Shown: positions 7,331 to 20,886, counted from the stretch's first letter. The stretch is 64,000 nucleotides of DNA from Eubacteriales bacterium (GCA_045592105.1 JAZNUB010000041.1:20517-84516), one strand, 5' to 3'. Notes: a model not told the origin generated them from the letters alone. Translations and numbers: made by a program.

Positions 7331-7380
7331 AGTCAGCAATATTATTGTGCCTATCGGCACGAGTATTGCTGACTTTTTTT
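7331..7380 (+). terminator. rho-independent terminator
   Basis: Stem agtcagcaata (7331-7341) pairs with tattgctgact (7364-7374), followed by a T run. Confidence 0.75.
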
Positions 7381-7539
7381 ATATGAAATCCTGTGTAAAA
7401 AATTTTTTGAAAAAATTCAATTTTTTTATAGACGTTTTTGCTTTTTTCGACATTTATATAGTGGAGACATTAGATAAATCTCAAAAATATTATTTTATAG
7501 GTCATGTTAAGCCAAAAACTCAAGATAAGGGAGCGTAAA

Positions 7540-8070
7540 ATGGGGAATATACTGCAACGTATCATTTATTATGCATCGTGTGCTACTCCCATAGCAATTA
7601 CATTTTCAATAGTATGGTGCATTCAAGAGCATACATGTTTAGTTCCTTCAATTATAATCTTGGTAGGCATATTTATATTAATCCTTTTCAAAAAGTTATT
7701 TTTGTATGCACTTAAATCATCACAAATAACTACGGTAAACGTGATAGAAGTTATCCCAAAAGATGGATGGGTACTTGCGTATATAATTTCTTACTTGTTC
7801 CCATTTGTGAGCTTTGTAATAGACGATGTTGATTATTTATTGTTCGGTATACTTTCGGTATTATTTGTAATCATTGCCGGATGTACGCATTCCGCAACGC
7901 CAAATCCTATCCTATGGGCATTCGGATATCACTTTTATGAATTGAAAAGTAAACACGGTATGTCCGGTTACATTTACGCATGTAAAGGCAAATTATGTAC
8001 TCCAAAGGATATAAAGACCGCTAGGCGTTATTTTGACTTGTTATTAGTAGAAGATAAATCTGAAAGGTAA
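7540..8070 (+). CDS. small 4-TM membrane protein, KwaA-like
   Basis: Start moved to MGNILQRII (AAGGGAG RBS). Four hydrophobic helices in ~176 aa. A 4-nt gap separates it from the next gene. Size and topology match Kiwa KwaA. Confidence 0.5.
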   Translation: MGNILQRIIYYASCATPIAITFSIVWCIQEHTCLVPSIIILVGIFILILFKKLFLYALKSSQITTVNVIEVIPKDGWVLAYIISYLFPFVSFVIDDVDYLLFGILSVLFVIIAGCTHSATPNPILWAFGYHFYELKSKHGMSGYIYACKGKLCTPKDIKTARRYFDLLLVEDKSER

Positions 8071-8074
8071 AATT

Positions 8075-8962
8075 ATGTTTGAAAACAGCTCTGTATTTAT
8101 ATTCACAGAATCCAATTGCCAGCATAGTGTATTGAAATTAGAAATGGATGCTAATACACAAAAAGCGATTTGCGAGACCTTTAATCAAGCACAAATAAGC
8201 TTGACGGAAAATAAGAACAAAATCGTTTTTGACGGTAACTATAAACCTCACGATGATGAATTCCTTTCGATTTCCAATTTTACATTGGCGGATGAAATTA
8301 AGGACGCAATCCGAAACCCTTTAGGAGTTCATAGTTATTGTAAAAGTGAAGATAAATATCCCGAAATTAAAGCTATCTTTGTAGGTGAAAAAGAAGATAG
8401 CAACGATAAAGAAGTTTTTCGCATTGCTTTTCAGCGTTTCAAAAAGGAACAGTATATATCTACAAAACCGTTCAATTTGTTTTTTGATAACAAAACATTT
8501 ATTCAAGAAACAAGATTTGGTATAAGTATCGCTGATACTATTGACTGTTATTATGAAGACGGAGAGCTTCAATTCCTATCATTTTATTTCGCTCGTCAAA
8601 TATTTGATTTAAGCGATTATTATCGCACAGCAACCGATAATGAAGTAACCACATTTGCTGCCAGCGATAAACTGGCTTTAGAAGATAAAGATCTATTTAT
8701 CGCAAATGCGAATTCTTGGATAAGGAGAAAAATCGCATTGATAAACGACTCCGGAGTTTTAAACAATAACACCGCACATCAAATAAAGTCGTTAGCCAAA
8801 AAAATAGGGGTTTCAGTTGATGTTGCTGACAACAAGGTGGTAATCCCCAGAGACAAAGAACAGGTCAAAATTATTTTAGGCTTCTTAGACGAAGAAGCAT
8901 ATAAAGGCCCTTTTACCAAAAAGACCTTTTTAGCAAATTCCAAAAGAACGATCGGGAAATAG
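8075..8962 (+). CDS. KwaB-like (DUF4868-like) protein
   Basis: 295 aa, soluble, tightly coupled to the 4-TM gene. The central ...IDCYYEDGELQFLSFYFARQIFDLSDYY... and C-terminal ...KIILGFLDEEAYKGPFTKKTF... regions resemble DUF4868 as I remember it. Not verified by HMM. Confidence 0.5.
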   Translation: MFENSSVFIFTESNCQHSVLKLEMDANTQKAICETFNQAQISLTENKNKIVFDGNYKPHDDEFLSISNFTLADEIKDAIRNPLGVHSYCKSEDKYPEIKAIFVGEKEDSNDKEVFRIAFQRFKKEQYISTKPFNLFFDNKTFIQETRFGISIADTIDCYYEDGELQFLSFYFARQIFDLSDYYRTATDNEVTTFAASDKLALEDKDLFIANANSWIRRKIALINDSGVLNNNTAHQIKSLAKKIGVSVDVADNKVVIPRDKEQVKIILGFLDEEAYKGPFTKKTFLANSKRTIGK

Positions 8963-8967
8963 GGAGG

Positions 8968-9876
8968 CTACAACTGATTTCTATAGTTGTATTTATTTAG
9001 CACTTGACGTTTGCGCTTGATACTGACTTCGGTATAAATTTCCGTTGTTGCTACGCTGCTATGCCCTAGAAGCTCCTGAACAGAACGAAGGTCTGCGCCG
9101 TTTGATAACAGATTGGTTGCTAATGTGTGACGAAGGCAATGTGGCGTTGCCTTTTCAGTTATTTTCGCGCTTTGTTTTGCGCTTTTGAATATGTATTCTA
9201 TGCCGTGTATACTTATTTGATTGCCATAGCGATTTACAAATACCTTATCGGTATAAAGTTCGGTTTTGTTACGGTATTTAAGCCATTGAGTAAGATTGTG
9301 CCAGGTTTCCGGGCAAGAAATATATATCAGCCTTTGCTTTCTACCCTTGCCGTGTATAAGTATTGTGTGTTCAGATGAAATAATGTCTGACAACGAAATG
9401 TTGGATGCTTCTTCTATACGAATTCCCGTGCATATAAGAATGTCAAGTAAGGCAAGGTTGCGTGCGTTTTTCCATTTTGCAGCTTCGGTATTTGATTGTT
9501 CGAAGCGCTTGTAGACAGCCTCCAAAAGAGAGCACACTTCCTTTTTGGTAAGTGTTTTGGGAAGGCGTTTAGCTTTTTTGAATTTGAATACATTAGCGTA
9601 ATAGTTTTTGTCTGTGTATCCTTTTTGATTAAGATACGCAAAAAACATTTTCAGTACAATGAGTTTTCGGTTGATTGTGCTGTCAGATAACTGTCGTGTA
9701 TCCATAAGATATGAAACATATTTAACAACCGTTTCTTCGTTGATGTCATCATCAAGAATATAGTTATTAAAATCTTTCAAATCTGAAAAGTAGGCAGTTA
9801 TTGTTTTAACCGATAGGTTCTTAGTGGAGCGTATGTGCTCCAAAAATTCGTTAGTAATGCTCTGATATTTGTTCAT
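8968..9876 (-). CDS. tyrosine recombinase, XerC/XerD-like
   Basis: 302 aa. Catalytic-signature motifs TGIRIEE (R), HCLRHTLATNLL (HxxR), LLGHSSVATTEIYTEV (H...Y). Confidence 0.9.
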   Translation of the reverse strand: MNKYQSITNEFLEHIRSTKNLSVKTITAYFSDLKDFNNYILDDDINEETVVKYVSYLMDTRQLSDSTINRKLIVLKMFFAYLNQKGYTDKNYYANVFKFKKAKRLPKTLTKKEVCSLLEAVYKRFEQSNTEAAKWKNARNLALLDILICTGIRIEEASNISLSDIISSEHTILIHGKGRKQRLIYISCPETWHNLTQWLKYRNKTELYTDKVFVNRYGNQISIHGIEYIFKSAKQSAKITEKATPHCLRHTLATNLLSNGADLRSVQELLGHSSVATTEIYTEVSIKRKRQVLNKYNYRNQL

Positions 9877-9951
9877 TTGTAAGCCCCTTTCTTGTCAAGC
9901 GGTAATCTTATATATTATAACAAAATTCGAGCAATTACAAATAAAATATAA

Positions 9952-10006
9952 TTACAATAACTACTTATTATTGTGAGATTACGAACACAGGATATTATTT
10001 TATTAT
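9952..10006 (+). repeat. R1: 55-bp element, perfect inverted partner of R2
   Basis: ttacaataactacttattattgtgagattacgaacacaggatattattttattat. Contains the palindrome ACAATAA-N7-TTATTGT. Ends 31 bp before the ATG at 10038. Confidence 0.95.
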
Positions 10007-10037
10007 CAATGATAAGTCTAGAAAATGAGGTGTCATT

Positions 10038-11498
10038 ATGGATGGCGTAGAAAAATCTAACATTTATATGGAGGATGGTCAGGATCATGAGTGCTGTAGT
10101 CTTACAGATATGGTATTCAAAGATCTCGACTATAGCCAATATAAGAACCCTATTTCTTTCTTTAGAAGCGATTTTAGTCGCAGCAGATTCTACAGTTGTA
10201 CATTCAATCGAAATTCGTTTGGGCGGGCAGATTTTATTGATGTCTTAATTAAAAACACAGAATTTGAATCTGTTGATTTTGGTTCTTGCTTGCTTAAAAA
10301 CGTATTGCTCGAAAAAGTGATTTTTTCTCGTAACAGTTATCGCGGTATAGCAATCCAATATACATGTTTTAGGAAGTGTGTTTTCAGAAATGAGGATTTC
10401 ATCACCAATATGTATCATTGCGAATTTCACGAGTGTACATTCATAAACTGTACATTCAAAAAATCATCTCTTGATTCTAATACATTTTCAAATTGTGAGT
10501 TTATCAAAGTAGATATGTCAGAGTGTATTGCAGAGAATTTAAAATTCGGTAATTGCTCGTTACGAGATGTATTCCTTGGAGCTAATCTTTGGACAACCTA
10601 TTTATATCGAGACACAGATATATACAGCTTTGGCTTTAAGTATAGAGGTAAACAAGTTGATATTTGGAATGGAGATCCTGCATCATTTGTAGGCGGATTG
10701 TTACAGAAGGAACTATTCTTTGAGTACTTTAATGTTTTAATAATCGGTGATCTCATTCCCCAATATGGCTTTGCATGTGAATTTGAAAGATTATTCCCCC
10801 AAATAATGACACTATCTTCACAGCAAAGGAAGAGAACGATTATAAAAATACTGGATATGCTCCTATTTTATCAAAACTATCAAAAGCTTCCAATTGGCGA
10901 ATATCTTTCTGTGTATACTTACTTGCTTCAAATGAATTGGGGAGATACTCCATTTGATGAAGTACTTATATACAATGCTGAATTGTTCAAAATTCAAAAA
11001 TCCATGGAGCAGTTAGACTTTGATTTGTCCTACATTAGAAGCTTTCCAACCAACGCTATCTGTATATCTAAGTATCATATCAACTGTGATGATGCTGCAA
11101 TTGCGCGGGAGTATTTAGAAAATGTCTTTAATTCAGCAAATCATCTGTTATGTGGTAATGAGTATAGTCAGCCATTAATTAAAGTAATTAATGAGGAAAA
11201 AGGGTCTGTAATTCTAACGATAGCTTCTGCTGCAGTTTTAGCACTGCTTGTATCATATGTTGCCAAAAAGGTTATGCACAATTTACATAGTATTCAAATA
11301 GAACACGGAATCAAAAAGCAATTATTAAGAAGTTTAACGGAGGGAGGAACAGATATATCCGATATCAAAAAAAGCTGTACGCTTGCCCAAAAACTAGATT
11401 TGCTGCCCAATGAAAAAGATTCTGAGCACATTAATCGTCTTTCATCCGAACTCACTAAGGGTGAGATACTTGATATCATTCTAAATTTCCTATTTTAG
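10038..11498 (+). CDS. pentapeptide-repeat protein with C-terminal TM helix
   Basis: Residues ~30-190 are runs of pentapeptide repeats (FSRSRFYSCTFNRNSFGRADFIDVLIKNTEFESVDFGSCLL...). One hydrophobic helix VILTIASAAVLALLVSYVAKKV sits near residue 400. GAGGTG RBS. Confidence 0.8.
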   Translation: MDGVEKSNIYMEDGQDHECCSLTDMVFKDLDYSQYKNPISFFRSDFSRSRFYSCTFNRNSFGRADFIDVLIKNTEFESVDFGSCLLKNVLLEKVIFSRNSYRGIAIQYTCFRKCVFRNEDFITNMYHCEFHECTFINCTFKKSSLDSNTFSNCEFIKVDMSECIAENLKFGNCSLRDVFLGANLWTTYLYRDTDIYSFGFKYRGKQVDIWNGDPASFVGGLLQKELFFEYFNVLIIGDLIPQYGFACEFERLFPQIMTLSSQQRKRTIIKILDMLLFYQNYQKLPIGEYLSVYTYLLQMNWGDTPFDEVLIYNAELFKIQKSMEQLDFDLSYIRSFPTNAICISKYHINCDDAAIAREYLENVFNSANHLLCGNEYSQPLIKVINEEKGSVILTIASAAVLALLVSYVAKKVMHNLHSIQIEHGIKKQLLRSLTEGGTDISDIKKSCTLAQKLDLLPNEKDSEHINRLSSELTKGEILDIILNFLF

Positions 11499-12660
11499 TG
11501 ATTCCTTCAATCAAGCATTGTTGATCAAGAAGTAGGTTTACGCGGAACGAATACAAGCCTTCCTCCCGATACAGATAACGTGAATGTGGTGTTGTTAGAA
11601 CTCCCGTCTTTTTTAAAATGTCCAACGCAAACTGGGTGTCATCTGTTTTTTCCGTATTTGGAACAGATAACAACGCAAAGTACCCACAGTTGGTAGAAGA
11701 AATCACTGTGCGTGTATCTCGTAATATTGCTTTTATCATCTTGTATCGATTCTGCGCAAGTTTTGCATTTTCAGCTATTAAACTTGTTAGAGTTTGAGAC
11801 GATACGAGTGAATATATCTGTGGAACCAGATTAACTTGTTGCTGTGCCATTGAACCTACCATAAATACAGAAAGGCGGAGTATCCTTTTCATTATTTTAG
11901 GAGAAGCAAATACAAGTGCAAATTTAGCCCCATTTAAAAATACTCGTTTTGATATTGACTCGATAAACACGTAATGCTCAGCGGAGCTTATTGCTTGAAA
12001 AACAGGAGAATTGAACATATAATATGATGGATTGAAAATATTCCATGGCATGCCGCCATACACATAATCCATAACAAGGCATACATTATGTTTGTTGCAC
12101 AGTGTAACAATACTCATTATTGTTTCAGTACTGAGTTCAATGCCACAACCAAATAGCGGGTTGGTAATTATAAGTGTATCAATGGAATTGCTAACGAAAT
12201 AGTTTTCTATAATATCGTTATGTAGCGAAAAATTATCGTTTGCACACAATTTATATTCAACGACATTGAAATCCAGTTCATCAAGCAGATTAAGCGTGGA
12301 AAAATACACAGGAGTGACAACCAATGCACTGTGTCTTCCTGCTTCTTTCAACGATGATAGTGTAAGCATTATGCCAGATGTACCATTTGACCCGATTGTA
12401 AAACTGTCCTTATGGAGCGAAATTGAATACTGATTTGAAAAAAATTTTTGAATAGTATCGCGATAACCTTCTTCGTCTGTCCAAAAATAGTACTTCTGAA
12501 CATCTGAAAGCTGCACAGAGTTAAGTGCTAAGCTTGGCATGTGAATGCTGTTATAATCAGCATCCCAATCCGATAGAAAAATTGGACTTGTGCCCGTTCT
12601 CTGGTAATAGGCAATTTTTGCTTGCATTATTGCTTTGATACTAGTATTATATCGTCTCAT
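11476..12660 (-). CDS. PLP-dependent aminotransferase-fold protein (class I/II-like)
   Basis: ITNPLFGCG (compare NPxNPTG), VMDYVYGG (compare DEVY) and SISKRVFLNGAKFA (SxSK PLP-lysine motif). ATGA overlap with the upstream GNAT gene. 23-nt convergent overlap with the pentapeptide gene. Confidence 0.7.
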   Translation of the reverse strand: MRRYNTSIKAIMQAKIAYYQRTGTSPIFLSDWDADYNSIHMPSLALNSVQLSDVQKYYFWTDEEGYRDTIQKFFSNQYSISLHKDSFTIGSNGTSGIMLTLSSLKEAGRHSALVVTPVYFSTLNLLDELDFNVVEYKLCANDNFSLHNDIIENYFVSNSIDTLIITNPLFGCGIELSTETIMSIVTLCNKHNVCLVMDYVYGGMPWNIFNPSYYMFNSPVFQAISSAEHYVFIESISKRVFLNGAKFALVFASPKIMKRILRLSVFMVGSMAQQQVNLVPQIYSLVSSQTLTSLIAENAKLAQNRYKMIKAILRDTRTVISSTNCGYFALLSVPNTEKTDDTQFALDILKKTGVLTTPHSRYLYREEGLYSFRVNLLLDQQCLIEGITKIGNLE

Positions 12661-13319
12661 TCTTTTTCCTGCCTTGAGATTAAAATAAGGGTCTTGTTTT
12701 CAGATCCTAGTGCAATACCTTCATAACCACATCGGAGCATTAGGTTTAACTGATTTATTTCTCCTCTTGGGACGACAAACATTTTTTGATCGTTATCTTT
12801 CTCCTGCAGAGGTAAATTTGCGCACATAATAAACCGTTTTACCCCATAGATTTCATCATGCAAAACAATTCGTTGCTTTATTTTAAAAGCCAATGCCAGA
12901 CTAGGCGTATTTTGAGGTGATACCGTGCTCAATAAGATAGTAAATTGAGGATCGATATGTAACATCAAATATCGAATAAGCCGTTCAGCTATTCCCAATC
13001 TTCTGAATTCGGGCACAATACAAATGTGCTCCATTTGCACAACAGAAAGAAGTTTTTTCTCATCATAATGGAGCAAGTGTCCAAGGTTATTCTTACCTCT
13101 TTTAGGAAAAACAAATGATACGAATCCGATGAGAGCGTCTTCATAAAAAGCCCCCATCGTGTGGCCGTATCCAGAAATGATTTTAATGATGTAGTATAAA
13201 CTAGGGGGGATAAATAAGTCATTGCTTAATGTTGAAGTAACGATTTGCAAACAACGAGAAATCTGATGTATGTCATCCAAATTCAATAATCTTATTGTAA
13301 GATGTTTCTCAAAATTCAT
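12657..13319 (-). CDS. GNAT-family N-acetyltransferase
   Basis: Motif A ICIVPEFRRLGIAERLIRYL. Start moved to MNFEK because the track start at 13373 lies inside repeat R2. Confidence 0.75.
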   Translation of the reverse strand: MNFEKHLTIRLLNLDDIHQISRCLQIVTSTLSNDLFIPPSLYYIIKIISGYGHTMGAFYEDALIGFVSFVFPKRGKNNLGHLLHYDEKKLLSVVQMEHICIVPEFRRLGIAERLIRYLMLHIDPQFTILLSTVSPQNTPSLALAFKIKQRIVLHDEIYGVKRFIMCANLPLQEKDNDQKMFVVPRGEINQLNLMLRCGYEGIALGSENKTLILISRQEKE

Positions 13320-13339
13320 CAATCCACCACGCATACTGT

Positions 13340-13394
13340 ATAATAAAATAATATCCTGTGTTCGTAATCTCACAATAATAAGTAGTTATTGTAA
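13340..13394 (-). repeat. R2: 55-bp element, perfect inverted copy of R1
   Basis: Its reverse complement equals 9952-10006 base for base. Lies immediately upstream of the minus-strand GNAT/aminotransferase operon. Confidence 0.95.
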
Positions 13395-13449
13395 GGTAAG
13401 TACGTACGTCAACAGAACACGTAAAAAAGAAAAATAACCTAATTATATC

Positions 13450-13467
13450 ACAATAATCCGGTTATTG
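13450..13467. promoter_or_regulatory. degenerate fifth copy of the repeat core overlapping a minus-strand promoter-like sequence
   Basis: acaataatccggttattg (CAATAA-N5-TTATTG). The minus strand reads caataaccggattattgtgatataat, an extended -10 TGnTATAAT aligned to the attattgtgagatta segment of R1-R4. Confidence 0.5.
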
Positions 13468-13553
13468 AAATTGAATTATTAAGTTTGTGCGCATGAACGG
13501 CAAGCTGTATCATAACTGATTTTAATATGATTTAAGAATAAATATAAAATACG

Positions 13554-13612
13554 ATAATCCTACAATAACTGCTAATTATTGTGAGATTATGATAGCTAGG
13601 GACTGTAATTTG
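13554..13612 (+). repeat. R3: 59-bp element, perfect inverted partner of R4
   Basis: ataatcctacaataactgctaattattgtgagattatgatagctagggactgtaatttg. Shares the core tacaataact..attattgtgagatta with R1/R2. Confidence 0.95.
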
Positions 13613-13647
13613 TTTATATCAAATTAAAACAAAAGTACAATGTTGAT

Positions 13648-14718
13648 TCACTTAGGAATGGCATATACTACTGACTCCTCATAATAACAAGAATGATGCC
13701 GAAAATATAAATCATATCCCAAACCTAATTTATGTATGTATTGAGGAATTTCTACATAATCTGATATTTTATGATATGAGCATACTGCTAATATTGGTTT
13801 ACAAGATTTAATAGTTTTTATTGCGCCTTCAAGTGCCTGCAATTCTGCCCCCTCGATATCTAAAGCGATTATTGCAACATCGCTGAGGCAGCAATCATCT
13901 AATAGTAATGTTTGAACAATACTATTTCCGTTACCTTCTGCGCACACTTTGGCTCCTAGTTCATTTGAATTATCAAAGGAAATGTAACCATTGCTGTTAT
14001 AAAGTGCTTTTTCAATTATTTTTATTTTAGACAAATTACAAAACTTTTGACGCAAATATTCTGTCCAAATTGAATTCGGCTCGAAAAGTATGGCATTCTT
14101 TATATCTGTTTGCGTTAGCGCCCTATCAATGTGACTTCCATTATAGGCGCCTCCAAGAATTATTGTTCCTTTTTCTGGAACGTTTGGCACTATATCATTT
14201 CCCCAGTATGGATGCCCAGAAAAAAGCATAGGATCATATACGCGTCCTATTATTCGTGATTTCCAATATTCCTTATATAGTTTTTGAGAAGTTGCATCTG
14301 CGAAAAGTTTCGAAGTGTCAATAATTTCTAATTCATGATCCAATGCATAAAAATATGCTTCAATCGATGTACATGGTAGTATTGGGAAATAGTAGCATTG
14401 CAAATGATCATATAGCTCACCTAAATAATTATAAAACTCCTGATCTTCTGCGGCAATCAATATTATAGCGTTCTCTGAGCGTATGTTTTTTATTTCGTGT
14501 AACGGAAATACAGGAATTCCGCGCACACCGTTTGGATACTCTTCTGGGGAAAAATCGTATATTTTGTATGGCAACGGCAATCGCGGATTGGTTTCAGAAC
14601 AAAATGGTTCTAATAGAAAAGACTCTGCATGCTTCGCACCCAAACATAGCAATGATTTAGTTCCGTAAAAAACTGGAGTTAGCATTTTTGTAATAACGGA
14701 AATACTATCAAGACTCAT
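13648..14718 (-). CDS. FkbM-family SAM-dependent methyltransferase with N-terminal extension
   Basis: GGAYNGSHI and IALDIEGAELQALEGA motifs of FkbM methyltransferases. Start moved to MSLDSISV (AGGAGG, then 7 nt, then ATG). Confidence 0.7.
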   Translation of the reverse strand: MSLDSISVITKMLTPVFYGTKSLLCLGAKHAESFLLEPFCSETNPRLPLPYKIYDFSPEEYPNGVRGIPVFPLHEIKNIRSENAIILIAAEDQEFYNYLGELYDHLQCYYFPILPCTSIEAYFYALDHELEIIDTSKLFADATSQKLYKEYWKSRIIGRVYDPMLFSGHPYWGNDIVPNVPEKGTIILGGAYNGSHIDRALTQTDIKNAILFEPNSIWTEYLRQKFCNLSKIKIIEKALYNSNGYISFDNSNELGAKVCAEGNGNSIVQTLLLDDCCLSDVAIIALDIEGAELQALEGAIKTIKSCKPILAVCSYHKISDYVEIPQYIHKLGLGYDLYFRHHSCYYEESVVYAIPK

Positions 14719-14751
14719 ATTTAAACCTCCTGTGAAAGGATTGATACCACA

Positions 14752-17700
14752 ATGAAAGACCAATGGCAATTTACATTAATATCTGAAATCAAATCGATCA
14801 TTCGGGGAAAAGGCTGTTCTGAAGGACTATGTTTTTTCCTTGGTGCGGGAGCAGATATTACTAGTGGAGGAATGCTGTTTTCAGATTTAAAAAGACGATG
14901 TCTATACCAACAAGGCATTTCTCTTCCTATAAATGCTTCACCTTTGATGATTGATTGCACCTTTGACCAATACTTTCGTGCGTTGACAGAAGATGAACGT
15001 TGTATTGTTTTAGAAAATCTTCTTCGCGAAACAAGAAGATTTAATCCGTCGGATGGATATCGGTTACTTGTACTCATGGCCAGGGAAAAGTTTGTATCCT
15101 CTGTAATTACGACTAATTTCGATAATTTAATGGAACAGACAGAGTTAGATATGGGAATTAATGCATTTCAGATATATTCCCCTGGAATTTCTATTCCGGC
15201 GTCACACATAATAAATCATCGTTCATCGAGGGCAATTTATCTAAAAATGCACGGAGATGTTGATGGTAGGTGCGTTACGCACCTCACAGTAGAAGAAATT
15301 AACAATCGTAATTATCAAGATGAATATAAAATATTGTTGCAGCATTTGCTTACACATAGTACGGTCATTGTTGCAGGCTATAGTGGCTATGACTCAAAGA
15401 TTGCAGATATATTTCAGCAAAATCTTGATCGATTACATACCGTATATTGGTGCAATCCGTCTTTACCAAACCCTGATGCTCCGCTGGTGAAGGTCCTAAA
15501 CAGTGCACAAAAGTTACGATATATTCAAACCGGATTCGATGCTTTCGTAGAAACTATTGCAAGTGAACTGTTTCGAGAGCGCATGATATTTCATGCAGAC
15601 TCAATTTTTATATGGTCGCTAATTAAAACAAAAATCGAAAAGCTACAAGATATCTATCGCAAGAGCGCAGACTTGCCAACTAGTGAAATCTGCATCCCAA
15701 GACTTGCCGCATTGTCCCAATTCGATCAATTTTTAGCCCAAACGGAAAAAAATCTTTTCATTTTATCCGGTCCTCAAGGTTCGGGAAAAACAGTTTTAAT
15801 TTCTCAGTTATTAATGCGCAATGAAGCGGATAACCTATATGTTGTTCCTATATCCGCTCCAGGTGCATTAGTTCCTGATCCCTCTGCTTATTTAATTGAA
15901 AATCTCGGCTATATTACAACCAACCCAATGTCTGTGCTCTATCAATTTACGGAATGGTTGCATGAAATCAAGAAGGATGTTGTAATTGTATTTGACTCCA
16001 TTGGCAGTGGACAATCTAGTAGGGAACGTATCGCAGATTATCTGAGTACAATAATAGAATTAGCATATATACTTCGACATGTTCCAAATGTAAAATTCAT
16101 AATTTCATTAAAAGACGATATATTTAACAACGTGGCAAAGGATTTAGATCAAAACTATTTGCGTACTGTTCTTTGGAGTAATAGTCATTCTCTTGGTCTA
16201 TCAAGTTTGTTCATGGACGGCTTCACGGACGAGGAACTATCTAGTGCTCTTCAAATATTCCGTTATCGTTTTACAGCACATGAGGTTAATGAGATATCGG
16301 ATGATATTCGTAGTTTATTTCGAATCCCATTTTTCTTCGGATTAGCGTTACAGCATAATTTCAACAGCGGAACATCGATATTTGACGTAGCGGGATTAAT
16401 GCCTACAATTGATCGTATCTTTGCGATATATGAATTGTCGTTCGCGGAAAGGAAGTTTCTCCAAAATCTTGCAACAAAAATGTTAAATACAAACAATTCG
16501 GTTTTGCGCATTGATGAAATAGAATTTGAAACTTTGCACGGTTTGAAACAGATTCTGAATGTGACTTCCGATTGTGTTTCTTTTCGTCATCCGCTATTTT
16601 GGCAGTACTTTCTCGTGCGTTCATATAAGACAAAACAAATTTTAAATAATGGTACGTTTGTTGACCTTAATTGGATAGCGTCTACTTTTTTGTGCGAAAC
16701 GACTGAACGAGCAATTCAAGAAAGTTTTGTATTATTTCTTTCGGATGAAGAAGAAATCGATTGCGTGTGTAATTTTTTTGTTAGATTGTTACAGGAAAAT
16801 CAGTGCAATTCTTCTCGATTATTGCATGTGAACAAATTAATTGGACAGGTAGTTGATAACTGGGCTATTAACCGTACAAATGATCTTTTGCAGTGGGTAA
16901 AATATGTAGATTCCAAAAGTGAAAGTTTTATATTAATTTCGAAAAGACTTGCGTATTGCTCGACTCATATGGATGATACGAATGCATATTTGTTACTGGA
17001 TATGTTACGAATTCGTTGTACAAATCCAATTGCGTTAGAGTGTTGCGTGTTGATCAATGATCGTTTTTCAGAGGGATTAAAACGTGTACCAGAGGGAGAG
17101 GAATGCGAATATTTTGGCAAGTATGGCTATATTCTTAAGTCCAACACCGCACTTGGAACATTAGTACAATTTGTATGGTTAATGAGTAAAATCGGAATCG
17201 ATAATCTCGAACTCAATCATTACACTCGATTGGCCAAGTGCGTAAAAAAACAGATCGAATCTTTGGACGTTTCTAATGTCACCAAGGAAGATGCAGAGCT
17301 ACTTAAAGAAGGTTTTGTACAAAATGTATACATGATCTTCTTTAATGCTAATAGTAATTTGGAAGAAAAATTTTACTGCTTCGCAGCAAAGTCTAAAACA
17401 TCCCCAATAATCCGTACTTTACTCAACGGCAAAGATGGTATAACATTACAGCATTTGTACGAAATTCGTTCATGTGTTGATCATTTCGATGAAACAATAG
17501 AGTTCTTTGTCTGTAATTTATTGTTTACGCTCTCTATGTTGCAAAATCCCAATCGTGCGCTTAGTGAATTGGATGCCCTGTATAATAGTTTCGGAGATAA
17601 TGTAAATATCCTTGAACTAGACTTCTATCTCAGTGCGTTGTTCATGTCTTGTTATATATCAGATCCCAGAGAACGGATGCAATATTTAACTCGATTCGAA

Positions 17701-18375
17701 CAAACCATCATCGATTACGAAACATTAATTTTTTATACACCAGCAGATGGACGTATATCATCTTGTCGGCGTTTTTCTGATCAATTTGATCTTGAGTTTG
17801 AAGATGGGTTTAATGCTCTAACAAACTATTCATATACAGCTCCTAGTATAAATTATATAAATCGTGACAATGAGAAACAGGGCGTTGATGAATATTTAAA
17901 AGCATACTGGTACCTTCTGGATACATTGGAAACAACGGGCAATTATGAAAAAATTCTACGACTTTTGCAAGCAGTCAGTCAAATGATTGTGAATTGGCCA
18001 AAAGAAGGATTTGATGCCTTGGAAAAATTTGTTTCGATCAAACATCCACTTATCCACCGCGGCGTAGTTAGAGTGTTGTCTCAGAACTATTTGCGTTATC
18101 CTTCGATTACAAAATCATTTCTTAACAAGAACGGTGATAATTTCACGTATCATGAACTTTTGGAGATTCAAGGCAATGCATCAGCAAATATTGAGTATCG
18201 AACGCTTGAGCAACTACAATGGGCGCGTATGTTATACTTTTTGCGCACATGGATTGACGCAGATATCATCGAAAAGGTTTTGACGATTTTTATTACAACT
18301 GATACTCTAGAATCAGCGCTTATGAAAATTATTGCTTTAACGAAAGGTTCAAATAGTGACGAATTAATTGGTTGA
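14752..18375 (+). CDS. SIR2-like domain / P-loop NTPase / helical-repeat protein (SIR2-STAND, Avs-like architecture)
   Basis: N-terminal motifs FFLGAGADITSGG, VITTNFDNLMEQ, YLKMHGDV and VIVAGYSGYD match the SIR2_2-type pattern. Walker A GPQGSGKT (nt 15769-15792) and Walker B-like DVVIVFDS. About 750 aa of mostly helical C-terminal sequence follow. Confidence 0.75.
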   Translation: MKDQWQFTLISEIKSIIRGKGCSEGLCFFLGAGADITSGGMLFSDLKRRCLYQQGISLPINASPLMIDCTFDQYFRALTEDERCIVLENLLRETRRFNPSDGYRLLVLMAREKFVSSVITTNFDNLMEQTELDMGINAFQIYSPGISIPASHIINHRSSRAIYLKMHGDVDGRCVTHLTVEEINNRNYQDEYKILLQHLLTHSTVIVAGYSGYDSKIADIFQQNLDRLHTVYWCNPSLPNPDAPLVKVLNSAQKLRYIQTGFDAFVETIASELFRERMIFHADSIFIWSLIKTKIEKLQDIYRKSADLPTSEICIPRLAALSQFDQFLAQTEKNLFILSGPQGSGKTVLISQLLMRNEADNLYVVPISAPGALVPDPSAYLIENLGYITTNPMSVLYQFTEWLHEIKKDVVIVFDSIGSGQSSRERIADYLSTIIELAYILRHVPNVKFIISLKDDIFNNVAKDLDQNYLRTVLWSNSHSLGLSSLFMDGFTDEELSSALQIFRYRFTAHEVNEISDDIRSLFRIPFFFGLALQHNFNSGTSIFDVAGLMPTIDRIFAIYELSFAERKFLQNLATKMLNTNNSVLRIDEIEFETLHGLKQILNVTSDCVSFRHPLFWQYFLVRSYKTKQILNNGTFVDLNWIASTFLCETTERAIQESFVLFLSDEEEIDCVCNFFVRLLQENQCNSSRLLHVNKLIGQVVDNWAINRTNDLLQWVKYVDSKSESFILISKRLAYCSTHMDDTNAYLLLDMLRIRCTNPIALECCVLINDRFSEGLKRVPEGEECEYFGKYGYILKSNTALGTLVQFVWLMSKIGIDNLELNHYTRLAKCVKKQIESLDVSNVTKEDAELLKEGFVQNVYMIFFNANSNLEEKFYCFAAKSKTSPIIRTLLNGKDGITLQHLYEIRSCVDHFDETIEFFVCNLLFTLSMLQNPNRALSELDALYNSFGDNVNILELDFYLSALFMSCYISDPRERMQYLTRFEQTIIDYETLIFYTPADGRISSCRRFSDQFDLEFEDGFNALTNYSYTAPSINYINRDNEKQGVDEYLKAYWYLLDTLETTGNYEKILRLLQAVSQMIVNWPKEGFDALEKFVSIKHPLIHRGVVRVLSQNYLRYPSITKSFLNKNGDNFTYHELLEIQGNASANIEYRTLEQLQWARMLYFLRTWIDADIIEKVLTIFITTDTLESALMKIIALTKGSNSDELIG

Positions 18376-19684
18376 ACAGTTCAAGTTCATGTTCTTCCAT
18401 AAAAAGACTGGGCGATAAAAGAAAAGCATTTTCAAAAATACCCCCAACAGATATAATTAACCCATAGTTTGTATTTCTTATAGACATAGGTTGAGTTAAT
18501 GCTAATTCGGCAACTCTACGAGTTAATACTGGATCGGGTCGCTTTGAAATAGGATCTACCAATTCTAGACCAGCGGCCATTCCGCAGCAATCAACGCGTC
18601 CAATGATGGAATAATCCGCTTTTAGCTGTGTTATTATTTCGTTAAATACATGGGATTTTCTTGCCACCTGATTCTGCAGGCTTTCTGAAGCCGTAAGTTC
18701 CATCGCTGTGATTCCTAGAGACATTGCAATTGGGTTCCCTGAAAAGGTAGAGTGAGAAGAACCACATGGCCATTGATCGGGGGATATTATTTCTTCGCGT
18801 GCCCATACACCAGACAGAGGCCATAATCCATTGGTTATCGATTTACCAAATGTAAACATATCTGGAGTTACGTTATAGTTTTCAAATGCCCACATTTTCC
18901 CTGTTCGAAAAAAACCCATTTGAATTTCATCGAAAACAAGATAAATACGGTGTTTATTTAGTAACGCTTTTAACTCACCAAAGTATTCCTTTGGGGGCAT
19001 AACATATCCACAGCGTCCGAGGAGCGGTTCTGCAAAAAAGGCTCTATATTCGCTAATCTCATTTTGGGGTTGAAATACGCCATAGTACTCCGATTCAAAC
19101 ACACGTTCGATCTGCTTGATGCAAAATAAATTGCAAGAAGTGTTTATTTTTTCATATGGACATCGGATACAACATGGAAATGGAATACGATATGTATTGA
19201 TAATACTGCCAAACTGATTATGGTATCGGTTACTTGAACTTATACTAGATGCAGCCATCGTTCTGCCATGGTATGCACCTTCAAACGTAAACACATTTTT
19301 AGTTCCAGTCGATGATGAAATTATTTTTAATGCATCATCGACTGCTTGTGCTCCCCCAACTGAGAAGTGTACACGTCCTTTTACTCCATGTTTCTGTTCC
19401 ATATAGGAACATATCTTTTCGGCAAGTATGACTTGAGAGTCGCACATATACTCTCCAGATAAACTTGGAAGTTGTTTCATCTGTCGCACTAAAGCTTCTT
19501 CAAATAAGGGATTTCGATATCCAAAGTTCGCTGCACTATTATACATCTGCATATCAAGATATTTCGTTCCGCTATTATCGAACAAAAAACAACCTTCGCC
19601 CTTACTGAAGTACTTCTTAGGTTGGTGTCGAGCGCTAGTATCGCCCTGAGAACAATACTTTTGCTCCGTTTCTTGAATATTCAT
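18329..19684 (-). CDS. class III (omega-type) PLP aminotransferase
   Basis: YLVFDEIQMGFFRTGKMWAFE and FTFGKSITNG (PLP lysine) motifs. Strong RBS AAAGAGGGG. 47-nt convergent overlap with the SIR2-STAND gene. Confidence 0.8.
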   Translation of the reverse strand: MNIQETEQKYCSQGDTSARHQPKKYFSKGEGCFLFDNSGTKYLDMQMYNSAANFGYRNPLFEEALVRQMKQLPSLSGEYMCDSQVILAEKICSYMEQKHGVKGRVHFSVGGAQAVDDALKIISSSTGTKNVFTFEGAYHGRTMAASSISSSNRYHNQFGSIINTYRIPFPCCIRCPYEKINTSCNLFCIKQIERVFESEYYGVFQPQNEISEYRAFFAEPLLGRCGYVMPPKEYFGELKALLNKHRIYLVFDEIQMGFFRTGKMWAFENYNVTPDMFTFGKSITNGLWPLSGVWAREEIISPDQWPCGSSHSTFSGNPIAMSLGITAMELTASESLQNQVARKSHVFNEIITQLKADYSIIGRVDCCGMAAGLELVDPISKRPDPVLTRRVAELALTQPMSIRNTNYGLIISVGGIFENAFLLSPSLFMEEHELELFNQLIRHYLNLSLKQ

Positions 19685-19729
19685 GATATTTACCCCTCTT
19701 TAACTTAATGTAGTCCAATAAAAAGATTG

Positions 19730-19788
19730 CAAATTACAGTCCCTAGCTATCATAATCTCACAATAATTAGCAGTTATTGTAGGATTAT
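19730..19788 (-). repeat. R4: 59-bp element, perfect inverted copy of R3
   Basis: Its reverse complement equals 13554-13612. Ends 45 bp upstream of the class III aminotransferase start codon. Confidence 0.95.
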
Positions 19789-19870
19789 TGCGGATTTAAA
19801 AGGATTTGCACATTTTTTCAGCGTAAAAACAAAACGTATAAAGAAAAGACCTGTAATCGCAATTGATTAA

Positions 19871-19927
19871 TCCCCTTAGAGCAATCTTGAAACATTTTTG
19901 TTGTTTCAAGTGTCTACTCTAAGGGGA
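19871..19927. other. long nested hairpin at a module boundary
   Basis: Outer stem tccccttagag (19871-19881) pairs with ctctaagggga (19917-19927). Inner stem cttgaaaca (19886-19894) pairs with tgtttcaag (19902-19910). No flanking T run. Confidence 0.7.
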
Positions 19928-19969
19928 TCATATCAAACACAGCAATTTCATTTTTATGTGCAAAAAGCA

Positions 19970-19998
19970 TTGACACGCTACTTATCATAGTGTATAAT
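19970..19998 (+). promoter_or_regulatory. consensus sigma-70/sigA-type promoter
   Basis: TTGACA (19970-19975), 17-nt spacer, TATAAT (19993-19998), about 35 nt upstream of the ATG at 20032. Confidence 0.7.
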
Positions 19999-20031
19999 AA
20001 TTATACCAACAGATGATAGGCGGGCGATTAT

Positions 20032-20886
20032 ATGAATGAGCTAATTAAATACATTCGGGCATCGGCAAATATGAATCAGGAGCAGTTTGCTTCTGCTCTC
20101 GGTACTACGGTGCAATCTATAAACCGTTGGGAGAACGGAAAGACACTTCCCAACAATATGGCGCAAAAGCAGATATATCAGTTTTGCCTGGGCAATAATA
20201 TTAACATAAGCGATCATATCATTATGTCAAAGGAATATCCCCATTCCGATGATAAGCTGATTTTGTATCATGGATCTAAAAAGGGGTTGAAGGGAGATAT
20301 TGCCCCTGTCAGCCGTGAGGAATGTGACTTCGGGCAGGGCTTCTATATGGGTACTACAACTCTGCAGCCTTTAACTCTTGTCTGTGCCGAGTCAAAACCC
20401 AAGTTTTATACGGTGGAGCTTGATTTGACCGGTTTGAAGGTTCTCCGTGTCGGCATCGATATGGATTGGGCTATGCTGATTGCCTACTTTCGTAAGGAAA
20501 TGGAAGAAGCAAAAGGCACGGCGATCTACGAGAAATATGCGCATTTCGCAGATGGCTACGACATTATCGTAGGTTATATCGCAAATGACCGTATGTATAC
20601 CGAATTGTCAAGATTCTTTAACCGTACACTTACCGATGTGGCACTTATCAATTGTCTGTCTGCGTTGGATCTTGGTATGCAGTATGTGGCTATTACGGAA
20701 AAAGCCTGTAAGCAAATCAAGGTTGTTAAAGAGGAACAGTTGCATCTCCTTGAGCTTTCTGCATTGATTGATTTGAGTGTCGCACGCCGTAAGGAAGGTA
20801 TCGCATTGGCGGAGGATATCGAAGTCAAGTACAGACGTGAAGGAAAATTCTTTGATGAAATTTTGAGAGGTGGGTTAGATGAGTAA
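20032..20886 (+). CDS. XRE-type HTH fused to a DUF3990-like domain
   Basis: N-terminal MNQEQFASALGTTVQSINRWENGKTLP is an HTH_3 pattern. The C-terminal LILYHGSKKGL...DFGQGFYMGT pattern matches DUF3990 as I remember it. Confidence 0.65.
   Translation: MNELIKYIRASANMNQEQFASALGTTVQSINRWENGKTLPNNMAQKQIYQFCLGNNINISDHIIMSKEYPHSDDKLILYHGSKKGLKGDIAPVSREECDFGQGFYMGTTTLQPLTLVCAESKPKFYTVELDLTGLKVLRVGIDMDWAMLIAYFRKEMEEAKGTAIYEKYAHFADGYDIIVGYIANDRMYTELSRFFNRTLTDVALINCLSALDLGMQYVAITEKACKQIKVVKEEQLHLLELSALIDLSVARRKEGIALAEDIEVKYRREGKFFDEILRGGLDE

What the first reader, a model, noticed from the sequence alone, without database searches (positions are those of the whole stretch)
8968..19788. Six-gene AT-rich block built as two cassettes, each bounded by perfect 55/59-bp inverted repeats with a shared palindromic core, next to a Xer-like recombinase
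Seen directly: R1 (9952-10006) and R2 (13340-13394) are perfect reverse complements. So are R3 (13554-13612) and R4 (19730-19788). The two pairs differ from each other but share a ~32-nt outer core, tacaataactNctNattattgtgagattaYga. That core contains ACAATAA-N7-TTATTGT followed by an extended -10-like TGTGAGATTA. All four copies point into their cassette. R1 ends 31 bp before the pentapeptide gene. R2 ends about 20 bp before the GNAT/aminotransferase operon. R4 ends 45 bp before the class III aminotransferase. R3 has no sense-strand gene directly after it: it points into the 3' end of the opposite-strand FkbM gene, and the next same-strand gene is the SIR2-STAND gene about 1.1 kb further on. 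No transposase lies inside either cassette. A tyrosine recombinase gene ends 76 bp from R1. Three readings are possible: (a) invertible or shufflon-like segments acted on by the adjacent recombinase; (b) cassettes with terminal inverted repeats mobilised in trans; (c) four transcription units sharing one operator/promoter, i.e. one co-regulated six-gene system. I know of no described defence or biosynthetic system with this gene set or repeat architecture.
Basis: partly seen in the sequence, partly recalled or inferred. Interest (0 to 1): 0.88.

Follow-up and report, generated by a model that had tools for sequence, protein, structure and literature searches.

The report
Recombinase-flipped, swappable phage-defence gene cassettes
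The four repeats are most likely docking and recombination sites for the neighbouring Xer-like recombinase, marking two separate three-gene cassettes of a widespread and, as far as I could find, undescribed gut-Clostridia system in which defence cassettes are flipped and replaced at exactly these sites.

Summary
R1/R2 (55 nt) and R3/R4 (59 nt) are perfect inverted repeats. All four share a core that is a tyrosine-recombinase-type site: 10-nt inverted arms around a 7-nt asymmetric spacer, cTTACAATAA-CTnnnnA-TTATTGTgAG.

The same layout recurs in many gut Clostridia assemblies. A homologous Xer-like recombinase sits beside one site. A partner site lies in inverted orientation 1.8-6 kb away. Between them is a cassette of defence-type genes, usually in two convergent arms (Thoeris, TIR + radical SAM, STAND + ATP-grasp).

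In relatives carrying the identical recombinase protein, the same cassette is found in both orientations at 99.9-100% identity, with breakpoints inside the sites. This was seen in four independent cases across two recombinase clades.

Recombinases 85-93% identical to the window's sit next to four unrelated cassettes. Homology stops at the core.

Cassette 1 (pentapeptide/aminotransferase/GNAT) and cassette 2 (FkbM/SIR2-STAND/aminotransferase) each occur alone elsewhere. They are two independent modules, not one six-gene system.

The whole locus lies in a ~28-kb island at uvrB.

Inversion is inferred for this window and observed only in relatives. Cassette exchange by double site-specific recombination, and expression from flanking inward-facing promoters, are inferences.

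The closest known analogue is the Acinetobacter dif module.

The parts
8968..9876 (-). Xer-like tyrosine recombinase (302 aa). It is transcribed divergently from cassette 1.
   Evidence: Pfam Phage_integrase 4.7e-37 plus an N-terminal SAM-like domain. The XerC and XerD NCBIfam models score 233 and 219 bits, below their cut-offs of 335 and 330. The catalytic residues R139, K177, H246, R249, H272 and Y281 are invariant in alignment A3. The closest solved structures are XerD, XerA and XerH. There are 1819 homologues at E<=1e-40.
9877..9951 (.). Recombinase-proximal flank. It holds a putative recombinase promoter (extended -10 TGTTATAAT on the - strand) and a TATAAT at 9947-9952 facing the cassette.
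   Evidence: My reading of the sequence. The flank is conserved in L009 (A1). In the 62-66% identity group the same flank carries TTGAAT-17-TATAAT facing the cassette (A1 consensus; L059).
9952..10006 (+). R1. The core site is 9951-9977 (ATTACAATAA-CTACTTA-TTATTGTGAG). It is followed by a second, GGATAA-N7-TTATC-like element at 9989-10007.
   Evidence: The inner element resembles the sites used by the second recombinase clade.
10038..11498 (+). Cassette 1, arm 1: pentapeptide-repeat protein (486 aa) with one C-terminal hydrophobic helix.
   Evidence: Pfam Pentapeptide_4. Weak HalA match, 47 bits against a cut-off of 250. Translation. Homologues lie mostly on contigs of 3.2-3.4 kb, the size of the cassette.
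11476..12660 (-). Cassette 1, arm 2: class I/II PLP aminotransferase (394 aa).
   Evidence: Its link to the pentapeptide gene is conserved in L068-L074 and L020.
12657..13334 (-). Cassette 1, arm 2: GNAT acetyltransferase. The likely true start is 13319, giving 220 aa.
   Evidence: The homologues in L068-L074 are 220 aa.
13340..13394 (-). R2, the perfect inverted copy of R1. The core site is 13369-13395.
13395..13553 (.). Spacer between the cassettes. Positions 13395-13480 are conserved with the distal flank of L009. It contains an extended -10 (TGATATAAT, - strand, about 13445-13455) facing R2, and a degenerate site-like palindrome ACAATAA-TCCGG-TTATTGA.
   Evidence: A2, BLAST 81.5%, and my reading.
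13554..13612 (+). R3. The core site is 13559-13585 (CCTACAATAA-CTGCTAA-TTATTGTGAG).
13648..14718 (-). Cassette 2: FkbM-family methyltransferase. The true start is M17 at 14718, giving 356 aa.
   Evidence: Homologues of 354-360 aa occupy the same position in L075-L077.
14752..18375 (+). Cassette 2: SIR2-STAND NTPase (1207 aa). Its start lies 33 nt from the FkbM start, on the opposite strand.
   Evidence: Homologues lie on contigs of 6.16-6.25 kb, the size of the cassette.
18329..19684 (-). Cassette 2: class III aminotransferase (451 aa).
   Evidence: 1.3e-67. A 451-aa homologue occupies the same position in L075-L077.
19730..19788 (-). R4, the perfect inverted copy of R3. The core site is 19757-19783.
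   Evidence: The same site and right flank occur at 93% identity in an Acutalibacteraceae MAG (L005).

Best explanation
R1-R4 are recombination sites for the adjacent Xer-like tyrosine recombinase. Each has two 10-nt inverted arms around a 7-nt asymmetric spacer.

Each inverted pair shares one spacer: CTACTTA for R1/R2 and CTGCTAA for R3/R4. Each pair bounds an independent three-gene cassette. The recombinase can flip a cassette by crossing over in the spacer (inferred here; seen in relatives). Because the paired sites are inverted, a cassette cannot be excised and lost. Because the two pairs differ in their spacers, the two cassettes probably do not recombine with each other (inferred by analogy with dif modules and heterospecific lox sites).

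Over evolutionary time cassettes are replaced at exactly these sites (shown by comparison). The most likely route is two site-specific crossovers with another DNA molecule carrying the same sites, i.e. cassette exchange (inferred).

The cassettes appear to carry few or no promoters of their own. Their genes sit in two convergent or interleaved arms that start next to the sites. They are probably transcribed from promoters in or just outside the sites at both ends (inferred).

The cargo is phage-defence-like. The locus therefore acts as a dock that holds, flips and renews defence modules.
For: 1. The site has the architecture of a recombinase site and recurs. The consensus of 23 sites from 13 sources (the window and 12 loci) is cTTACAATAA-CTAtTtA-TTATTGTgAG, and the spacer always reads CT....A going into the cassette.

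2. The recombinase is linked to the site. Nearly every homologue looked up has a site about 30-110 nt upstream of its start codon, or a contig that breaks there. L019 and L022 lack one there. In the more distant L028 and L029 the site pair lies 3' of the gene.

3. Inverted partner sites bound cassettes in L002, L004, L006-L010, L020, L028, L029 and L059.

4. Inversion is observed.
- L059 vs L063 carry the identical recombinase P0104. Positions 1-4341 are collinear, 4315-7813 inverted and 7781-9377 collinear, at 99.97% identity. The breakpoints are the 27-nt sites.
- L060 and L066 contigs carry the recombinase-proximal flank at both ends, so both junction types exist in one sample.
- L073 vs L068-L072 and L074 show the cassette 1 homologue inverted at a 19-25-nt repeat.
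- L075 vs L076 show the cassette 2 homologue with a 17-nt shared site.
- L080 vs L081/L083: the junction equals inner distal arm + spacer + outer proximal arm.

5. Sites co-vary with recombinase clades: ACAATAA, CTAATAA/CAAATAA, AAAATAA and GGATAA arms.

6. Cassettes turn over. Recombinases 85-93% identical sit next to four unrelated cassettes: the window, L009 (Thoeris-like), L010 (radical SAM + TIR) and L017. Homology stops at the core on the proximal side (A1) and on the distal side (A2).

7. The cassettes are independent. Cassette 1 occurs alone in L068-L074. Cassette 2 occurs alone in L075-L077.

8. Cassettes look promoterless. The gap from site to start codon is only 17-31 nt in L010 and L020. 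FkbM and SIR2-STAND start 33 nt apart on opposite strands, a layout conserved in L075-L077 and mirrored in L017. Near-consensus inward-facing promoters lie in the flanks: TTGAAT-17-TATAAT (A1), TTGTCA-17-GATAAT and TTGATT-17-TATAAT (L059), and TGTGATATAAT (L075).
Against: - No read-level or comparative evidence of inversion or exchange exists for this window's own cassettes. The closest relatives (99% recombinase, L014-L016) are contigs that break at the site.
- Inversion of a cassette whose two ends carry identical 55-59-nt repeats would change nothing obvious, so its selective value is unclear.
- Perfect identity extending 22-27 nt beyond the core is not explained by crossover in the spacer.
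- Cassette replacement could be due to homologous recombination in conserved flanks rather than site-specific exchange.
- No circular, cointegrate or donor form was seen.
- The promoter-like matches are not enriched over shuffles (45 found against 48 expected). No transcription start is known.
- L017 and cassette 2 break the simple rule that genes start at the site.
- L019 (59% identical recombinase) shows no site upstream.
Confidence: 0.72

Rival explanations
1. Phase-variation switch. The main purpose of the sites is to flip the cassette so that its two arms swap between a strong recombinase-proximal promoter and a weaker distal one. This would change which part of the defence system is highly expressed, for example the SIR2-STAND effector versus the FkbM and aminotransferase enzymes. 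The result would be population heterogeneity. Cassette replacement would be incidental.
For: Both orientations co-occur in nature, and apparently within single samples. The proximal flanks carry near-consensus or extended -10 promoters facing the cassette. The interleaved layout of cassette 2 and L017 means each end would drive a different gene set. Programmed inversions by tyrosine invertases are well known (PMC9881135).
Against: Good inward-facing promoter candidates are also present in the distal flanks (L059; window about 13450). In the window the two ends are identical for 55-59 nt. Thoeris cassettes place ThsA and the TIR protein on opposite arms (L002, L009), although both are needed together. 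An on/off toggle between arms is therefore unlikely; at most the ratio of the two would change.
Confidence: 0.25
2. Shared promoter/operator only. The repeats are regulatory sites that place four transcription units under one regulator, forming a single six-gene system. The recombinase would be unrelated, for example the island's integrase.
For: All four copies face inward, close to gene starts. A TTGTGA-16-TATTAT promoter-like match lies inside R1 and R2. The palindrome could bind a dimeric regulator.
Against: The same sites flank unrelated cargo in other genomes and always sit beside the homologous recombinase. Inversions break exactly in the sites. The two cassettes occur separately elsewhere. 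The site arms change with the recombinase clade. The internal promoter match is not conserved in L003 or L012 (my reading). The island has its own integrases at 32554-35058.
Confidence: 0.07
3. The sites are passive. Inversion and cassette turnover are carried out by general homologous recombination between the repeats and between conserved flanks, not by the recombinase.
For: The window's repeats are long enough (55-59 nt) for low-frequency RecA-dependent inversion. The flanks are conserved between loci with different cassettes.
Against: In relatives the shared sequence at the inversion breakpoints is only 17-33 nt. The junction in L081 is a clean arm/spacer/arm recombinant although its two arms differ. 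The recombinase gene is intact, conserved and tightly linked.
Confidence: 0.08
4. Cassettes with terminal inverted repeats are moved in trans by a transposase, like non-autonomous transposons.
For: Terminal inverted repeats bound gene-carrying segments that have no internal transposase.
Against: There are no target-site duplications at either cassette. The positions are always beside the recombinase, not scattered. The repeats have spacer-and-arm structure, and recombinant junctions lie within them.
Confidence: 0.03

Closest known systems
Acinetobacter dif modules (pdif / XerC-XerD sites on Rep_3 plasmids)
   Same: In both, discrete gene modules are bounded by inversely oriented Xer-type sites and several modules sit side by side. 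Spacer identity decides which sites can react. Inversions and module reshuffling are seen, whereas simple excision is not (PMC13141974, PMC11705084). The window shows the same logic: R1=R2 and R3=R4 in spacer, and the two pairs differ.
   Different: Here the sites are 10-7-10 with nearly identical arms, suggesting a single recombinase, rather than 11-6-11 with distinct XerC and XerD arms. A dedicated recombinase gene sits beside the first site. The locus is in chromosomal islands or ICE-like elements of gut Clostridia, not on Acinetobacter plasmids. The cargo is phage defence rather than resistance or toxin-antitoxin genes. Genes are arranged in arms that start at the sites.
Programmed DNA inversions by tyrosine invertases (C. 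difficile RecV switches, Bacteroides Tsr systems, hsdS invertons with Xer-like recombinases)
   Same: Inverted repeats plus a nearby tyrosine recombinase, with both orientations present in populations (PMC9881135, PMC7672463. RecV and Tsr are from my own knowledge).
   Different: Known switches flip a promoter or rearrange a coding sequence. Here whole multi-gene defence systems of 1.8-6 kb are flipped. No coding sequence changes, and the two ends look equivalent.
Integrons
   Same: A tyrosine recombinase is transcribed divergently from a primary site. A promoter in the platform faces the cassettes. The array holds exchangeable, largely promoterless cassettes, and integron cassettes can carry defence genes (PMC12614218).
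   Different: The recombinase is not an integron integrase: TIGR02249 scores 112 bits against a cut-off of 265. There are no attC hairpins. Each cassette has two inverted double-stranded sites rather than one attC. The cassettes have two arms and are read from both ends.
Engineered recombinase-mediated cassette exchange with inverted or heterospecific lox/FRT sites
   Same: Inverted identical sites allow flipping and exchange but not excision. Sites with different spacers keep neighbouring cassettes independent (my own knowledge; the term occurs in PMC10250229).
   Different: That is a laboratory design. A natural counterpart is only inferred here.

Membership tests
Tyrosine recombinase, Xer-like branch | Phage_integrase catalytic domain with the R-K-H-R-H-Y residues, plus an N-terminal SAM-like domain | tested here: met
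   Pfam 4.7e-37 and 7.1e-14. R139, K177, H246, R249, H272 and Y281 are invariant in A3. The best PDB hits are XerD, XerA and XerH.
Housekeeping XerC / XerD | Score above the curated equivalog cut-off | tested here: not met
   XerC scores 233.2 bits against 335.15. XerD scores 219.4 against 329.6. The gene lies in an AT-rich island.
Acinetobacter dif modules | Modules bounded by inversely oriented Xer-type sites, with partner sites sharing a spacer | tested here: met
   R1/R2 share CTACTTA and R3/R4 share CTGCTAA, and both pairs are inverted.
Acinetobacter dif modules | 28-bp sites with distinct XerC and XerD arms (11-6-11), acted on by host XerCD, on Rep_3 plasmids | tested here: not met
   The sites are 10-7-10 with near-identical arms. 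A dedicated recombinase is adjacent. The context is chromosomal, between uvrB fragments.
Integron | Integron-type integrase; one attC per cassette; cassettes co-oriented | tested here: not met
   TIGR02249 scores 112.3 bits against 265. Each cassette has two inverted sites and genes on both strands.
Integron-like expression platform | Promoterless cassettes expressed from platform promoters | tested here: inconclusive
   Site-to-start gaps are short, genes are interleaved and flank promoters look good. The promoter scan is not enriched over shuffles and no transcription start data exist.
Programmed inversion (inverton) | Both orientations of the segment between the repeats exist | tested here: met
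   Met in related loci only: L059/L063, L073/L072, L075/L076 and L080/L081. It cannot be tested for this window's strain with these tools.
Programmed inversion (inverton) | Inversion moves a promoter or alters a coding sequence | tested here: not met
   The sites lie outside all coding sequences and whole operons are flipped.
Transposon with terminal inverted repeats | Transposase, target-site duplication, scattered insertion sites | tested here: not met
   There is no transposase domain and no duplication at the boundaries. The sites are always beside the recombinase.
Known defence systems (cargo of the window's cassettes) | Match of the gene set to a PADLOC or NCBIfam system model | tested here: not met
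   Only the SIR2 domain hits pAgo-associated or ThsA-type SIR2 models. The pentapeptide protein hits HalA at 47 bits against 250. The other four proteins have no PADLOC hit. The neighbouring KwaA/KwaB (7504-8962) do match Kiwa.

The most novel reading that the evidence does not exclude
Gut Clostridia carry a natural cassette-exchange platform. It consists of a single Xer-like recombinase, a primary site beside its gene, and arrays of promoterless two-armed defence cassettes, each locked between inverted sites with a private spacer. The cassettes are read from inward-facing platform promoters. They are flipped frequently and swapped between genomes by double site-specific crossover. This would be an integron-like solution for renewing immune genes, built from different parts. 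It occurs in at least two recombinase/site clades that exchange cargo.
Probability: 0.4. Interest if true: 0.9.

Novelty: new variant of a known kind. Interest (0 to 1): 0.8.

Why it matters
- **Defence-system turnover.** It would show how strictly anaerobic gut Firmicutes hold and renew phage-defence systems. The mechanism differs from integrons, prophage hotspots and transposons.
- **Discovery handle.** Anything lying between a pair of these sites next to the recombinase is a candidate defence system. That includes the two uncharacterised trios in this window: pentapeptide + aminotransferase + GNAT, and FkbM + SIR2-STAND + aminotransferase.
- **Tools.** It would supply compact, possibly orthogonal recombinase/site pairs (27-bp sites whose specificity is set by the spacer) for genome engineering in Clostridia.
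- **Assembly.** It explains a recurrent pattern in gut metagenomes: contigs of exactly cassette length.

Tried and rejected
- The strict 28-nt core found nothing in the JGI metagenome collection or in IMG/VR viral contigs. I reached relatives there through a recombinase alignment instead.
- The exact-protein look-up of the pentapeptide ORF failed, probably because the gene start was called differently.
- Rfam and tRNA scans of the window were empty. The repeats are therefore not a known RNA element, and the island is not inserted at a tRNA.
- The consensus promoter/terminator scan gave no enrichment over shuffles: 45 against 48 promoters and 7 against 6 terminators. All promoter statements rest on conservation and position, not on that scan.
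- No fetched locus holds a near-identical cassette in two different docks. I therefore have no case of very recent transfer.
- I considered a strict either/or toggle between the two arms. I rejected it because Thoeris partners sit on opposite arms.
- I considered a transposon with terminal repeats, an assembly artefact and a local duplication. I rejected them because the architecture recurs in independent assemblies with the recombinase.
- Six full-text literature searches found no description of this architecture. The library lacks most subscription journals, so prior description cannot be excluded.

Full report
**1. The observation**

The window holds two pairs of perfect inverted repeats. 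One pair is 9952-10006 / 13340-13394 (55 nt). The other is 13554-13612 / 19730-19788 (59 nt). The pairs differ from each other but share a 32-nt core at 91% identity.

The core pattern ACAATAA-N7-TTATTGTGAGATTA occurs four times exactly. Shuffled sequence gives 0.02 matches on average.

- Xer-like tyrosine recombinase, 8968-9876, minus strand.
- Pentapeptide-repeat protein, 10038-11498.
- Class I/II aminotransferase, 11476-12660, minus strand.
- GNAT, 12657-13334, minus strand.
- FkbM methyltransferase, 13648-14769, minus strand.
- SIR2-STAND NTPase, 14752-18375.
- Class III aminotransferase, 18329-19684, minus strand.

Two details need correcting. The recombinase end that faces R1 is its start codon. 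The core is best read as two 10-nt inverted arms around a 7-nt spacer. The spacer is CTACTTA in R1/R2 and CTGCTAA in R3/R4.

**2. The architecture recurs in other genomes**

A scan of one genome per species for the core gave nine loci, all from gut Clostridia MAGs (Acutalibacteraceae, Eubacteriales, Faecalimonas and an uncultured Bacilli bin). Several have two copies in inverted orientation 1.8-3.7 kb apart.

Five of these loci carry a homologue of the window's recombinase right beside one copy. L005 is 93% identical to the window's right flank and includes R4. The window therefore comes from a relative of an Acutalibacteraceae MAG.

The recombinase family is large: 1819 proteins at E<=1e-40, almost all of 302-303 aa. 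Nearly every member whose context I fetched has a site about 30-110 nt upstream of its start codon, or sits on a contig that breaks at that point. A break there is what an assembler does at a repeat. The exceptions are L019 and L022, which have no site there, and the distant L028 and L029, where the site pair lies 3' of the gene.

Twenty-three sites from 13 sources (the window and 12 loci) give the consensus cTTACAATAA-CTAtTtA-TTATTGTgAG. The spacer always reads CT....A going into the cassette.

More distant recombinases (41-55% identity) have the same layout with altered arms. Examples are CTCCTAATAA-CTATGAA-TTATTTGGAG in L028 and TTCAAAATAA-CTCGCGA-TTATTTTGAG in L029. A second clade, about 30% identical to the window's enzyme, uses GGATAA-N7-TTATCC sites. 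Site sequence therefore changes with the protein, as expected for a recombinase and its target.

**3. Cargo of the cassettes**

The cargo is defence-like:

| Locus | Cargo |
|---|---|
| L009 | ThsA (SIR2-STALD), a TIR protein, a HAD hydrolase, a nucleoside-kinase-like protein |
| L002 | TIR protein and ThsA |
| L010 | Radical SAM enzyme and TIR protein |
| L007, L058 | ATP-grasp enzyme and STAND NTPase |
| L020 | Pentapeptide protein and aminotransferase |
| L028, L029 | STAND NTPases plus a protein of about 350 aa |
| L008 | TPR-S protein plus a small protein |

In almost all cassettes the genes form two convergent arms, each starting next to a site.

**4. Inversion is observed directly in relatives**

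I found four independent cases.

*Case 1, P0104.* This recombinase protein (63% identical to the window's) is encoded on 22 contigs. In L058, L059 and L062 the cassette (AAA_16 NTPase plus ATP-grasp) lies one way. In L060, L061, L063 and L065-L067 it lies the other way. L059 and L063 align as follows, at 99.97% identity: 1-4341 collinear, 4315-7813 inverted, 7781-9377 collinear. The overlaps are the two 27-nt sites. Contigs L060 and L066 have the recombinase-proximal flank at both ends of the cassette. No single genome can have that, so both junction types were present in those samples.

*Case 2, P0127.* This is a 65% identical homologue of the window's pentapeptide protein. It sits with an aminotransferase and a GNAT in an element that also encodes a relaxase and a large serine recombinase. 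The cassette lies next to the 3' end of a clade-B tyrosine recombinase. L073 has the cassette inverted relative to L068-L072 and L074. The breakpoints lie at a 19-25-nt repeat.

*Case 3, P0167.* This is a 57% identical SIR2-STAND homologue, flanked by FkbM and class III aminotransferase genes as in the window. In L075 the recombinase-proximal flank joins the FkbM end. In L076 the same 13 nt of flank join the aminotransferase end. The shared sequence is only the 17-nt site.

*Case 4, P0051.* The first 664 nt at the distal end of the L080 cassette lie inverted, at 100% identity, next to the identical recombinase in L081 and L083. The junction reads as inner distal arm, then spacer, then outer proximal arm. 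That is the product of a crossover in the spacer.

Shared sequences of 17-33 nt are short for general homologous recombination. Together with the linked, intact recombinase, which keeps its catalytic R-K-H-R-H-Y residues, this points to site-specific inversion.

**5. Cassettes are replaced at the sites**

Recombinases 85-93% identical to each other sit next to four unrelated cassettes: the window, L009, L010 and L017.

Window and L009 align from the recombinase through the core and diverge just after GAGATTA (A1). On the far side they align again from the core outward for about 85-115 nt (A2; 81.5%). The window-L017 homology ends at position 9981, the inner edge of the core.

I did not find a very recent transfer of one cassette between two docks. 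The mechanism of replacement is therefore inferred. A double site-specific crossover (cassette exchange) fits the inverted-site geometry. Homologous recombination in the flanks is the alternative.

**6. The six genes are two independent modules**

Homologues of the pentapeptide protein lie mostly on contigs of 3.2-3.4 kb, and close homologues of the SIR2-STAND protein on contigs of 6.16-6.25 kb. These are the sizes of cassette 1 and cassette 2, as expected if assemblies break at the flanking repeats.

Cassette 1 occurs alone in L068-L074. Cassette 2 occurs alone in L075-L077. L077 is 77% identical in DNA to cassette 2 across its whole length, yet it ends in clade-B sites. Cargo therefore moves between the two recombinase/site clades.

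PADLOC and NCBIfam recognise neither trio as a known system.

**7. Expression (inference)**

Several observations suggest that transcription enters the cassettes from outside or from within the sites:
- The gap between site and start codon is as short as 17-31 nt in L010 and L020.
- In cassette 2 the FkbM start (14718, with a GGAGG ribosome-binding site) and the SIR2-STAND start (14752) are 33 nt apart on opposite strands. This layout is conserved in L075-L077 and mirrored in L017.
- Such a layout is easiest to explain if each strand is transcribed from its own end across the whole cassette. That would also explain why R3 faces the 3' end of FkbM.
- Good inward-facing promoter candidates lie in the flanks. 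The recombinase-proximal flank of the 62-66% identity group has TTGAAT-17-TATAAT (A1). L059 has candidates in both flanks. L075 has TGTGATATAAT. The window has an extended -10 about 60 nt outside R2 and a TATAAT abutting R1.

Against this, the generic promoter scan shows no enrichment and no transcription start is known.

**8. Context**

The AT-rich block begins at about 7100. Positions 6853-7126 are a duplicated 5' fragment of uvrB, 83% identical to the start of the intact uvrB at 35318-37264. Two phage-type integrase genes lie at 32554-35058. The recombinase-cassette locus and a Kiwa system (7504-8962) therefore sit at the left end of an island of about 28 kb inserted at uvrB.

**9. Comparison with known systems**

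The closest analogue is the Acinetobacter dif module system. There, modules are bounded by inversely oriented XerC/XerD sites. Spacer identity decides which sites react. Inversions, deletions and cointegrates are seen, but not simple excision (PMC13141974, PMC11705084).

The present system differs in five ways: site geometry (10-7-10 with near-symmetric arms), a dedicated adjacent recombinase, host group, cargo, and the two-armed gene layout.

It is not an integron: the integrase model scores far below its cut-off and there are no attC sites. It is not a classical promoter or coding-sequence inverton either.

Six literature searches found no description of this architecture. The library is incomplete.

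**10. Verdict**

- *Best supported:* the repeats are sites of the neighbouring recombinase, and they make each three-gene defence cassette an invertible, replaceable unit.
- *Shown:* site structure, linkage to the recombinase, inversion in relatives, cassette turnover at the sites, and independence of the two cassettes.
- *Inferred:* activity in this strain, exchange by double crossover, spacer-based insulation of neighbouring cassettes, and expression from flanking promoters.
- *Unexplained:* why identity within each pair extends 22-27 nt beyond the core; why R1/R2 (and L003, L012) carry a second, clade-B-like GGATAA-N7-TTATC element just inside the core; and what benefit inversion brings.

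Noticed in passing
window 6853-7126 and 35318-37264 (also 32554-35058): Positions 6853-7126 are a truncated copy of the 5' end of uvrB, 83% identical over 239 nt to the start of the intact uvrB at 35318. Two phage-type integrase genes, one of them split, lie just upstream of the intact gene. Positions 7.1-35.3 kb look like an island of about 28 kb integrated at the 5' end of uvrB. A 25-nt match (7235-7259 vs 35191-35215) may be the attachment core.
   Followed up: partly
window 7504-8962: A Kiwa defence system: KwaA (188 aa) and KwaB (295 aa; PADLOC 3e-85). It converges on the recombinase gene with a 5-nt gap. The KwaAB-recombinase linkage is conserved at 87-98% in L014, L015, L017 and L018.
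   Followed up: partly
window 9989-10007 and 13339-13357; L003, L012: Just inside the core, R1/R2 carry AGGATAT-TATTTTA-TTATC. This resembles the GGATAA-N7-TTATCC sites used by the second recombinase clade and the repeat that bounds the cassette 1 homologue in L073. L003 and L012 show the same composite of an A site, 11 nt and a B-like site. Its meaning is unknown: it could be a relic of capture from the other clade, a second active site, or a -10 region.
   Followed up: partly
window 13447-13470: The 159-nt spacer between the cassettes holds ACAATAA-TCCGG-TTATTGA. The arms are site-like but the spacer is 5 nt. It overlaps an extended -10 (TGATATAAT on the minus strand). It may be a scar of a former site.
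   Followed up: no
window 14718-14752; L075-L077; L017: FkbM and SIR2-STAND start 33 nt apart on opposite strands, each with its own ribosome-binding site. The gap is 35-41 nt in homologues. L017 has the same interleaved layout, with a 43-nt gap. This implies long antisense leaders or promoters buried in coding sequence.
   Followed up: partly
window 19868-19935 and 19970-20886: A strong hairpin (CCCCTTAGAG...CTCTAAGGGG) lies outside R4. It is followed by a perfect TTGACA-17-TATAAT promoter and an HTH-DUF3990 gene, which hits the PADLOC candidate systems PDC-M13 and PDC-M42, plus a 139-aa ORF.
   Followed up: no
window 21789-32203: The rest of the island encodes a LytTR response regulator with a GHKL kinase, several ABC-transporter and membrane proteins, a DUF5028 protein, an MBOAT acyltransferase and a DHHW protein. 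This may be a peptide-sensing or immunity module together with a cell-envelope acylation module.
   Followed up: no
L080 vs L081/L083: With an identical recombinase, the pentapeptide genes of two cassettes share a 100% identical first 664 nt and are then unrelated at the DNA level. The partner genes also differ (416-aa ATP-grasp vs a 378-aa protein of unknown family). The cassettes appear to be mosaics, or the short-read contigs are chimeric.
   Followed up: partly
L068-L074, L078: In these loci the recombinase-cassette unit lies inside an element with a relaxase, a NikA-like protein, a large serine recombinase and a group II intron reverse transcriptase. The docks therefore also ride on mobilisable or conjugative elements.
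   Followed up: no
protein tables: Homologues of the cassette proteins sit on contigs whose lengths cluster at 3.2-3.4 kb and 6.16-6.25 kb. These are the cassette lengths. It is a recurrent assembly signature that could be used to find such cassettes in bulk.
   Followed up: partly
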